Source: Eledone cirrhosa
Lineage: Eukaryota
Reading direction: 5' to 3'
Assembly: GCA_964016885.1 (NCBI GenBank)
Contig: OZ024741.1
Span: forward strand, 160,332,001 to 160,396,000
Length of the DNA stretch: 64,000 nt
The notes below the pieces were generated by a model, which searched no databases, had not been told where the DNA came from, and was given only the letters and a program-made list of their open reading frames with translations. Below are positions 35,587 through 36,441 of this stretch, in pieces. Position 1 is the stretch's first letter. Each line of letters begins with the position of its first letter. The position numbers and the translations under genes were made by a program.

Positions 35587-36441
35587 AAACGGAAAAAATG
35601 AAACGAAATTTCATTTCTCACTCTTAGTACGACTGTTACTTACACATATATATGTACGTATGGATTCACCGAACATTTATTATAATGCTCGGTGTGTTCG
35701 TAAAAAAAAATCCCGAATTAAGCCGTAAAGTGTCTAGCAACCATCGTTGCTCATTTGTTCAACACTGACAAAGGAACGCTGTACTAGTTTCAAACTTATT
35801 AGCTATCGTCAGCAACGTATACCTTCCTGCCAGATAGTTGAACGTCTGAAAGTATATACTTTCCTTATGCATATTAACGGCTGAGCAGCCTAATTTGTAT
35901 ATCGAGTGAGTTAATCGGCCGGGGTACTGAAAACGATAAACGGAAAAAATGAAACGAAATTTCATTTCTCACTCTTAGTACGGCTGTTACTTAAATATAA
36001 GTATGTATACGCACATACATATATGTATACAGACATACAGTAGTAATGTATATATATATATACATACATGCACACATATATATATGTACGTATCGATTCA
36101 CCGAACATTTATTATAATGCTCGGTGTGTTCGTAAACAAACATAAGGAAAGTATATACTTTCAGACGTTCAACTATCTGGCAGGAAGGTATACGTTGCTG
36201 GCGATAGCTAATAAGCTTGAAACTAGTACAGCGTTCCTTTTTCAGTGTTGAACAAATGAGCAACGCTGGTTGCTAGACACTGTACGGCTTAATTCGGGAT
36301 GTTTGTTTACGAACACACCGAGCATTATAATAAATGTCCGGTGAATCCATACGTACATATATATGTGTGCATGTATGTATATATATATATACATACTACT
36401 GTATGTCTGTATACGTATATGCATGTGCGTATACATACTTG
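35587..36441. mobile_element. Retrozyme-like array: minus arm 35587-36140 (>1 unit) joined head-to-head to plus arm 36141-36441
   Basis: HHR cores at 35806-35812 (minus) and 36198-36204 (plus, CTGGCGA variant); junction microhomology cat; TA flanks. Confidence 0.85.

What the first reader, a model, noticed from the sequence alone, without database searches (positions are those of the whole stretch)
35587..36441. Retrozyme-like arrays integrate with the same fold-back geometry as the coding Penelope elements
Seen: both multi-unit arrays have two oppositely oriented arms, with RNA-sense 3' ends pointing outward into (TA)n or (TG/TA)n and 5' ends joined centrally (cat microhomology at ~36141). 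Outer ends recur at two internal TA-like sites: catacttata (26662, 36441) and ccgtttat (8503, 35587). Inference: the RNA anneals to nicked (TA)n by short TAT(A) matches and is copied by a PLE RT. This would be sequence-level evidence linking the non-autonomous RNA to its helper.
Basis: partly seen in the sequence, partly recalled or inferred. Interest (0 to 1): 0.75.

Follow-up and report, generated by a model that had tools for sequence, protein, structure and literature searches.

The report
Retrozyme-like repeat with Penelope-type fold-back insertions
A 427-base non-coding repeat lies in this animal genome as back-to-back inverted arms with two fixed outer end points in (TA)n tracts, as does a coding Penelope-like element family of the same genome, so it is likely copied by a Penelope-type enzyme.

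Summary

- **Fold-backs.** In 81 other loci there are 46 fold-backs, and all 46 have RNA-sense 3' ends outward.
- **End points.** In the similarity-picked sample, 45 of 47 arm ends fall at two fixed sites 55 nt apart, and 38 of 47 abut (TA)n.
- **New rule.** 40 of 46 fold-backs have one end at each site. This matches the one-sided "tail" described for Penelope-like elements (PLEs).
- **Same ends without (TA)n.** Three non-(TA)n insertions use the same ends and have 9-10 bp target duplications. The ends are therefore fixed start sites, and TA annealing does not set them.
- **Coding PLE family.** The family in the window follows the same rule. It has 1938 tail-less and 3893 tailed ends in (TA)n, and 32 of 45 listed tail-less ends pair 3'-out with a tailed end.

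PLE-type two-strand target-primed copying is well supported. The helper PLE was not identified, and neither ribozyme activity nor circular RNA was tested. This is a new member of known kinds, with useful junction-level evidence.

The parts
35587..36143 (-). Array C, left arm: about 1.3 units. RNA sense is on the minus strand. The outer (3') end is at site 1, so this is the tail-bearing end. The 55-nt tail is 35587-35641.
36141..36441 (+). Array C, right arm. RNA sense is on the plus strand. The outer (3') end is at site 56 (...catactt), the tail-less end. CAT at 36141-36143 is shared with the left arm.
35527..35586 (.). (TA)n flank left of array C
36442..36546 (.). (TA)n flank right of array C
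35776..35818 (-). Candidate type-I hammerhead motif in array C. The copy in the right arm has CUGGCGA in place of CUGACGA.
26662..27410 (-). Array B, left arm (about 1.8 units, with one internal deletion). The outer end is at site 56. Hammerhead motif at 26873-26915.
27411..28019 (+). Array B, right arm. The outer end is irregular (unit position 327), followed by 21 unrelated bases and then (GT)n(TA)n. Hammerhead motif at 27607-27649.
8503..8896 (-). Array A: a single arm starting at site 1 next to (TA)n, 5'-truncated
47161..53500 (-). [quoted passage not shown] The outer end carries a 134-nt tail (47161-47294) next to (TA)n.
53535..59768 (+). PLE#1, right arm. It mirrors the left arm, with 3739 nt 100% complementary around a 34-nt spacer. 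The outer end is tail-less and abuts (TA)n.
42761..62758 (.). Outer palindrome of a second PLE (PLE#2) that encloses PLE#1. GIY-YIG-like ORFs lie near both outer ends and read outward (43271-43555 minus strand; 61688-62448 plus strand).

Best explanation
The arrays are insertions of a 427-nt non-coding, tandem-forming repeat that carries a candidate hammerhead ribozyme and is likely mobilised in trans by a Penelope-like element (PLE) protein, which would nick both strands of an AT-rich target and start cDNA on each strand at one of two fixed internal RNA sites 55 nt apart.

Shown:
- the unit, its strand-specific hammerhead-like motif, and the two fixed outer ends;
- the 3'-out inverted arms with variable inner ends joined by a few shared bases;
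- the (TA)n preference and 9-10 bp target duplications at other targets;
- the rule of one end of each kind per fold-back;
- the same rule in a coding PLE family of this genome.

Inferred:
- The template is a multimeric or circular RNA, because arms commonly exceed one unit.
- Each 3'-OH of the staggered cut primes one cDNA (twin priming). One starts at the distal site and so keeps the 55-nt tail; the other starts at the proximal site.
- The two cDNA 3' ends are then joined centrally by microhomology and filled in.
- Single arms (about half of insertions) would arise when only one strand is extended.
For: 1. Geometry. 46 of 46 fold-backs in 81 unique non-window loci have RNA-sense 3' ends outward.

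2. Fixed 3' ends, variable 5' ends. In the similarity-picked sample, 45 of 47 ends are at the two sites. Inner ends are spread over the unit, with 14 distinct centre types in 16 fold-backs.

3. One of each. 40 of 46 fold-backs pair site 1 with site 56. There are 2 pairs of 56/56, none of 1/1, and 4 with one irregular end. In the unbiased sample 15 of 16 are mixed although single arms use both sites (6 versus 7). By my arithmetic P(>=15 of 16 | 0.5) is about 2.6e-4.

4. Target duplications at non-(TA)n targets. L003 has 10 nt, L009 9 nt and L114 9 nt. L003 and L009 hit the same site of another repeat in opposite orientations.

5. Abortive starts. A short AAACGGAA... fragment lies in the (TA)n just before the full start in L112 and L126.

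6. Hammerhead motif on the inferred RNA strand. All core bases are present, with helix I of 6 bp, helix II of 4 bp, and helix III of 2 bp with the palindromic ACUAGU. Rfam HH9 aligns full length at 17.3 bits, E 0.034, in a 101-nt search. My descriptor found it only in the units (3 hits) and in 0 of 200 simulated windows.

7. The coding PLE#1 family. The window copy is a 3'-out palindrome with a 134-nt tail at one end only. Genome-wide there are 1938 tail-less and 3893 tailed ends in (TA)n. On the listed part of contig C1, ends adjacent within 20 kb form 32 3'-out mixed pairs, against 1 3'-out tailed/tailed pair, 0 tail-less/tail-less pairs and 1 3'-in pair.

8. Literature.
- PLE insertions show 5' truncation, partial tandems, an adjacent inverted 5'-truncated copy, a tail often at one end only, and (TA)n targets (PMC8557442, passages).
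- A purified PLE protein cleaves and extends both strands, prefers AT-rich DNA, and starts at two adjacent internal sites not homologous to the target. The tail is the stretch between them (PMC11167929, main text).
Against: - No sequence similarity was found (BLAST E<0.5, one 51-nt 67% match aside) between the unit core and 18 PLE loci of several subfamilies, or with window 36400-63000. No helper is identified, and the usual 3'-end/pLTR likeness of non-autonomous PLE derivatives is not shown.
- The hammerhead motif is far below Rfam's gathering score (17.3 versus 52). It was not listed at E<=10 in a 1.2-kb search. It has a U.U at the base of helix II.
- My descriptor was written after seeing the motif.
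- No RNA run was available.
- Copies are about 94% alike pairwise, and units within a locus are no more alike than units between loci (0.938 / 0.953 / 0.941). The data therefore cannot show that both arms came from one template.
- PLE#1 copies are 99.5-100% alike, so they are younger than the repeat's burst.
- 6 of 46 fold-backs, and array B in the window, break the end rule.
- In vitro, no difference in start site between the two strands was reported (PMC11167929).
Confidence: 0.75

Rival explanations
1. One reading: a PLE RT copies the RNA, but the end points are set by annealing of the nicked (TA)n to short TAT(A) stretches of the RNA.
For: - 38 of 47 ends abut (TA)>=4.
- Both sites are followed in the RNA by A/U (AUCG; AAGUAA).
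- L009 shows 6 nt of homology at the tail-less end.
Against: - The same ends occur with about 1 nt of homology at L003 and L114, and next to (CT)n/(GA)n tracts.
- The unit's own (TA) run is almost never an end.
- The one-of-each rule (40 of 46) is not predicted by free annealing.
- In-vitro PLE initiation is homology-independent (PMC11167929).
Confidence: 0.12
2. A Foldback-type DNA transposon: inverted terminal arms built of tandem repeats, moved by cut and paste into TA-rich DNA.
For: - The arms are inverted, built of tandem units, and variable in length.
- Target duplications are 9-10 bp. That Foldback elements of Drosophila make 9-bp duplications is recalled, not checked.
Against: - The two termini are not the same sequence; they are offset by 55 nt in 40 of 46.
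- About half of the insertions are single arms with a fixed outer end and a random inner end (43 arms).
- Abortive start fragments are present.
- A strand-specific ribozyme motif points outward in both arms.
- The coding PLE family shows the same pattern.
Confidence: 0.04
3. Twin priming by a LINE (non-LTR) reverse transcriptase acting on a SINE-like RNA.
For: - Twin priming also gives 3'-out inversions (recalled from L1 work).
- A LINE-type endonuclease ORF is in the window (2-1303).
Against: - The second start site is fixed, not variable.
- There is no A-rich or LINE-like tail.
- Head-to-tail multimers, a one-sided tail and a hammerhead motif are PLE or retrozyme traits.
Confidence: 0.05
4. 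DNA-level palindrome formation at fragile (TA)n tracts, or an assembly artefact.
For: The region is rich in palindromes. The PLE#1 arms are 100% identical.
Against: - There are thousands of dispersed copies with the same two ends.
- Target duplications are present.
- (TA)n lies outside the arms, not at their centre.
- The 46 fold-backs were tallied one per unique locus on many contigs, and 14 of the 16 centres examined differ.
Confidence: 0.02

Closest known systems
Metazoan non-LTR retrozymes (Cervera & de la Pena 2020, PMC7229834; passages read)
   Same: - Tandem unit of 150-450 bp (here 427 nt) and low GC (0.37).
- Target duplications longer than 4 bp.
- A type-I hammerhead layout with helix I of 6 bp, helix II of 4 bp, and helix III of 1-2 bp with a palindromic loop.
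- A U.U at the base of helix II is also reported there for an axolotl motif.
   Different: - The motif here is sub-threshold in Rfam and untested.
- Circular RNA is not shown.
- That paper's passages do not describe inverted arms, two fixed ends or a tail.
Penelope-like element insertion signature (Craig et al. 2021, PMC8557442; Frangieh et al. 2024, PMC11167929)
   Same: - 5' truncation and head-to-tail partial tandems.
- An adjacent inverted 5'-truncated copy.
- A tail at one end, equal to the stretch between two internal RT start sites.
- AT-rich / (TA)n targets, with both strands used.
   Different: - The repeat encodes nothing.
- Its tail is 55 nt (30-40 bp is described; 134 nt in the window's coding PLE).
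- No sequence likeness to a PLE was found.
Non-autonomous Chlamys PLE derivatives such as MRC1 of Chlamydomonas (PMC8557442, passage)
   Same: [quoted passage not shown]
   Different: - Those share 3' ends with autonomous families and lack canonical hammerheads.
- Here no shared 3' end was found, and a hammerhead-like motif is present.
Vertebrate retrozyme-pLTR relationship (Li, Clavereau & Pollet, bioRxiv 2026, 10.64898/2026.07.22.740005; abstract and section 14 read, term search)
   Same: The same conclusion: retrozymes are non-autonomous PLE derivatives.
   Different: Their evidence is co-occurrence and pLTR phylogeny. The words tail, orientation, initiation and target site do not occur in the text. 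The evidence here comes from insertion junctions.

Membership tests
Metazoan non-LTR retrozyme | Short tandem repeat unit (150-450 bp) in dimers to long multimers | tested here: met
   427-nt unit. Arms run from a fraction of a unit to more than 8 units (L018).
Metazoan non-LTR retrozyme | A type-I hammerhead ribozyme in each unit | tested here: inconclusive
   The full core and helices are readable, and the motif is present in the majority sequence of 88 copies. Rfam HH9 gives 17.3 bits against a gathering score of 52. There was no hit at gathering over the window and none at E<=10 in 1.2 kb. The post-hoc descriptor found it in 0 of 200 simulations. There are no covariation data and no cleavage assay.
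Metazoan non-LTR retrozyme | Low GC content and target duplications longer than 4 bp | tested here: met
   GC 0.37. Target duplications of 9-10 bp at 3 loci.
Metazoan non-LTR retrozyme | Expressed as self-cleaved circular RNA | not testable with these tools
   No RNA holder was listed; only contigs could be laid.
PLE-type insertion (mobilised by a PLE) | 5' truncation and head-to-tail partial tandems | tested here: met
PLE-type insertion (mobilised by a PLE) | An adjacent inverted 5'-truncated copy | tested here: met
   46 fold-backs in 81 loci, all 3'-out.
PLE-type insertion (mobilised by a PLE) | Two fixed internal start sites, giving an optional tail that is often at one end only | tested here: met
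   The sites are 55 nt apart. 45 of 47 ends lie at them, and 40 of 46 fold-backs have one of each.
PLE-type insertion (mobilised by a PLE) | AT-rich / microsatellite target | tested here: met
   38 of 47 ends are in (TA)>=4. 2657 plus 2136 exact ends lie in (TA)n.
PLE-type insertion (mobilised by a PLE) | Sequence likeness to an autonomous PLE at the 3' end or pLTR | tested here: not met
   None at E<0.5 (one weak 51-nt match aside) against 18 PLE loci and the window's PLEs. Only a few of the genome's PLE subfamilies were sampled.
Autonomous Penelope-like element | Encodes an RT and a GIY-YIG endonuclease | tested here: not met
   The unit has no such ORF. The window's PLE#1 does, although Pfam gave no significant hit for it.
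Foldback DNA transposon | Identical inverted termini | tested here: not met
   The termini differ by 55 nt in 40 of 46 fold-backs.

The most novel reading that the evidence does not exclude
PLE integration is an obligately asymmetric two-strand reaction. In both a coding PLE family and this 427-nt ribozyme-bearing passenger, the two cut target strands prime cDNA from two different fixed start sites, one keeping the tail and one not. This would be the genomic footprint of an RT dimer with divided labour on the template. It would also mean that retrozyme arrays are born as twin-primed multimer cDNAs, not only by rolling-circle copying.
Probability: 0.3. Interest if true: 0.7.

Novelty: new member of a known kind. 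Interest (0 to 1): 0.5.

Why it matters
That animal retrozymes are moved by Penelope-like elements has so far rested on co-occurrence and on likeness to pLTRs. Here the insertion junctions carry the PLE hallmarks: two fixed internal start sites, a one-sided tail, inverted twin arms and (TA)n targets. A coding PLE family in the same genome obeys the same rule. The strict pairing of one tailed and one tail-less end is a countable constraint on the still unsolved PLE integration mechanism. The genome also offers thousands of events, and apparently intact PLE ORFs, with which to test it.

Tried and rejected
- **Rfam.** Gathering threshold over the window gave nothing. At E<=10 over 35400-36600 there were only microRNA-like chance hits in TA-rich DNA.
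- **First crude hammerhead scan**. It missed the motif because of the U.U at the base of helix II.
- **Pfam.** No significant domain on the window's ORFs or on homologues of the PLE ORF, apart from a LINE endonuclease at 2-1303. The PLE identity therefore rests on motifs read by eye and on 58 homologues.
- **One-template test.** Comparing unit identity within and between loci was uninformative.
- **Helper search.** No likeness was found by BLAST of the unit core against 18 PLE loci plus the window.
- **RNA runs.** No RNA holder was listed.
- **Laying contigs of 4 runs on 35380-36620**. Only short contigs fitted, and none bridged the joint. It shows only that the family is very abundant in two runs and present in few contigs of two others.
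- **Earlier scan notes.** None exist for this genome.
- **Snap-back (self-primed hairpin) model.** Rejected because arm lengths and outer ends are unequal and the tail-less arm is often the longer one.
- **Master fold-back transcript model.** A single master transcript copied whole was rejected because 14 of 16 centres differ.

Full report
**What is in the window.**
BLAST of the first unit of the finding against the window shows three arrays of one repeat:
- Array A (8503-8896) is one arm.
- Array B has two arms of opposite orientation, 26662-27410 and 27411-28019.
- Array C, the finding itself, has two arms of opposite orientation, 35587-36143 and 36141-36441.

The full unit is 427 nt. It has a core of about 320 nt and an internal stretch of about 105 nt that is TA/TG-rich and looks like a microsatellite; this stretch is shortened in the first unit of array C. 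I number the unit on the strand opposite to the RNA sense. Position 1 is the A of AAACGG, and positions 56-160 are the TA/TG-rich stretch.

In array C the three bases CAT are shared by the two arms at 36141-36143. The right end of array B is the exception. It stops at unit position 327, and 21 unrelated bases lie before the (GT)n(TA)n tract.

**Which strand is the RNA.**
- Outer ends are fixed and inner ends vary, as expected for target-primed copies that start at a defined 3' place and stop early.
- That strand carries one hammerhead-like motif per unit: ACGUUG-CUGACGA-U-AGCU-AAUA-AGCU-U-GAAAC-UA-GUA|CAGCGU. It has all core bases, a 6-bp helix I, a 4-bp helix II, and a 2-bp helix III inside the palindrome ACUAGU.

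This is the layout described for metazoan type-I hammerheads that act as dimers (PMC4209133, passages; PMC7229834, passages, which also mentions a U.U at the base of helix II in an axolotl motif).

The evidence for the motif is weak but real:
- Rfam found nothing at gathering and nothing at E<=10 in a 1.2-kb search.
- In a 101-nt search, Hammerhead_HH9 aligned full length at 17.3 bits, E 0.034, against a gathering score of 52.
- A descriptor that I wrote after seeing the motif hit only the units (3 hits in the window) and none of 200 simulated windows.
- The motif stands in the majority sequence of 88 copies. One family gives no covariation.

I therefore call it a candidate ribozyme.

**Genome-wide test.**
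The window lies in a 3.0-Gb assembly. A search with the 339-nt core gave 1539 first-look candidates, and 30 loci were fetched. I then fetched 30 loci holding the exact site-1-into-(TA)n 31-mer and 30 holding the exact site-56-into-(TA)n 31-mer, in contig order.

I dropped the window's own locus (L001) and eight duplicates (L025, L057, L064, L067, L069, L070, L077, L082). That leaves 81 loci:

| Class | Count |
|---|---|
| Fold-backs | 46 |
| ... with RNA-sense 3' ends outward | 46 of 46 |
| ... one end at site 1, the other at site 56 | 40 |
| ... both ends at site 56 (L026, L088) | 2 |
| ... both ends at site 1 | 0 |
| ... one irregular end | 4 |
| Single arms | 43 |
| ... ending at site 1 | 22 |
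| ... ending at site 56 | 18 |
| ... cut or irregular | 3 |

In the sample picked only by similarity (28 loci):
- 45 of 47 scored 3' ends lie at the two sites and 38 of 47 abut (TA)>=4.
- 16 loci are fold-backs, and 15 of them are mixed. Single arms use both sites (6 and 7).
- By my arithmetic the chance of 15 or more mixed pairs out of 16 at p = 0.5 is about 2.6e-4.

Whole-genome exact counts are 2657 (site 1 into TA), 2833 (site 1 internal), 2136 (site 56 into TA) and 4578 (site 56 internal), with reversed-pattern controls of 0.

**The ends are start sites, not annealing sites.**
- *Non-(TA)n targets.* Three fold-backs outside (TA)n have the same two ends and clear target duplications: L003 (ACGTAATTTA, with a second arm of only 13 nt), L009 (AAATTACTT) and L114 (AATAACAAC). 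L003 and L009 hit the same site of another repeat in opposite orientations, which points to target preference.
- *Other microsatellites.* Ends also abut (CT)n/(GA)n tracts in L119, L123 and L125.
- *Abortive starts.* L112 and L126 show a short abortive AAACGGAA... fragment in the (TA)n just before the full start.
- *The unit's own (TA) run.* At about positions 108-125, this would pair best with a (TA)n primer, yet it is an end in at most three arms of all those tallied (x107, x126, x128; x128 is the interrupted arm L012).
- *Structure of the tail.* The 55 nt between the two sites fold as a 12-bp hairpin.

**Comparison with the coding PLEs.**
The 565-aa ORF at 53548-51851, and its mirror at 53487-55184, reads as an RT (YRDD) followed by CxC...C...C and a GIY-YIG core with two cysteines and H..H. 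It has 58 homologues of about 700-800 aa (sequences). Pfam gave no significant hit, so the name rests on motifs and on those homologues.

The window copy is 5'-truncated. It forms a palindrome with 3739-nt arms that are 100% complementary around a 34-nt spacer, with its 5' ends at the centre. Its right arm ends ...tttaatatttta|(TA)n. Its left arm carries 134 more bases before the (TA)n. That is a tail at one end only.

Genome-wide findings for this family:
- Its last 400 nt occur at 99.5-100% identity in 29 other loci.
- After the tail, 22 of these run into (TA)n and 7 continue as the next unit of about 7-kb tandems.
- Exact counts are 1938 tail-less and 3893 tailed ends in (TA)n.
- On the part of contig C1 listed in both outputs there are 45 tail-less and 100 tailed ends. 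Ends adjacent within 20 kb form 32 3'-out mixed pairs, 1 3'-out tailed/tailed pair, no tail-less/tail-less 3'-out pair, 1 3'-in pair and 6 same-strand pairs.

The coding family obeys the same rule as the 427-nt repeat. A second PLE (42761-62758) also has outward-reading nuclease ORFs at both ends.

**What is known.**
- Craig et al. 2021 describe PLE insertions as 5'-truncated partial tandems. They often have an inverted 5'-truncated copy alongside, a 30-40-bp tail often at one end only, and (TA)n targets for Naiads. They also describe non-autonomous Chlamys elements that form head-to-tail multimers (PMC8557442, passages).
- Frangieh et al. 2024 show that a purified PLE protein cleaves and extends both strands and prefers AT-rich DNA. 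It starts reverse transcription at two adjacent internal RNA sites not homologous to the target, and the tail is the stretch between them. The hammerhead is not needed in vitro (PMC11167929, main text).
- Cervera & de la Pena 2020 define metazoan non-LTR retrozymes and suggest PLE helpers.
- Li et al. 2026 relate vertebrate retrozymes to PLE pLTRs by phylogeny. Their text does not contain tail, orientation, initiation or target site.
- Two full-text searches found no paper that describes tails or inverted arms for retrozymes. This covers only the held library.

**Mechanism.**
The likely course is as follows. A PLE protein binds the repeat's multimeric or circular RNA near the tail hairpin and makes a staggered cut, 9-10 bp apart, in AT-rich DNA. 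Each 3'-OH then starts a cDNA, one at the distal site and one at the proximal site. Both run for one to a few units. Their 3' ends are joined by a few bases of homology and filled in. Single arms arise when only one strand is extended.

The junction anatomy is shown. The twin priming, the nature of the template and the division of the two sites between the strands are inferred. In vitro, no difference in start site between the strands was reported, so the one-of-each rule is the part that goes beyond what is in print. Craig et al. already note that the tail is often at one end only.

**Open points.**
- No helper was identified. The unit core has no likeness to 18 PLE loci of several subfamilies or to the window's PLEs.
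- The genome holds very many PLE ORFs, some open over 808-850 aa (82,012 first-look candidates).
- PLE#1 is younger than the repeat's burst.
- The identity test for one template was uninformative.
- No RNA data were available, and laid contigs did not bridge the joints.

**Verdict.**
The element is a new member of known kinds: a retrozyme-type passenger of PLEs, with junction-level evidence that seems not to have been reported.

Noticed in passing
window 8897-8990: A small palindrome, aaagttgaaaaataagggtcaccctaa-(TA)n-ttagggtggcccttatttttcaacttt, lies directly after array A. Here the (TA)n is at the centre, the reverse of the geometry of the repeat.
   Followed up: no
window 36477-42752: A third large palindrome lies right next to array C, with arms 91-98% alike around a unique centre of about 2.4 kb that holds ORFs at 39098-40249. 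CUGAUGA...GAAA motifs read outward in both arms (37449-37408 on the minus strand, 41946-41987 on the plus strand), and a third copy is at 4775-4816. Pfam gave nothing for the ORFs.
   Followed up: partly
window about 45214-45237 (minus strand) and 61424-61387 (minus strand): Two minimal hammerhead-like motifs lie within or near the second PLE (42761-62758). The first is CUGAAGA-A-GGGC-UUAU-GCCC-GAAAC-GUC in its left arm. The second is CUGAUGAG...GAAA-UAUAUAU.
   Followed up: no
window 53501-53548: The 34-nt spacer region of the PLE#1 palindrome holds a direct duplication of about 24 nt (gtgtggtcttttcaatgccaagga twice). It is read by the ORF as SLALKRPH twice.
   Followed up: no
window 2-1303 (minus strand): A LINE-type apurinic/apyrimidinic endonuclease domain (Exo_endo_phos, E 9e-15). 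The ORF runs off the window.
   Followed up: no
window 15904-19700 and 29362-30400: Long minisatellites with periods of 40 nt and 12 nt. They give long spurious open frames on both strands.
   Followed up: no
L003 and L009 (own genome): Two independent fold-back insertions hit the same position (GTAA(G)TAATTTAG) of another dispersed repeat, in opposite orientations. This suggests sequence preference of the nuclease beyond (TA)n.
   Followed up: partly
L012, L024; L015, L026 (own genome): Two other repeat families recur inside or beside the unit's TA/TG-rich stretch. One begins CATTTTACGTCC...CTTGCAAGGG and the other GGTGGCTGCCAACTCGTTTTCGAGTACGGCC. That stretch seems itself to be a target for other insertions.
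   Followed up: no
own genome: PLE ORFs of this clade are extremely numerous, with 82,012 first-look candidates. Many are open over 808-850 aa, and PLE#1 ends are 99.5-100% alike in 29 loci. These PLEs may still be active.
   Followed up: partly
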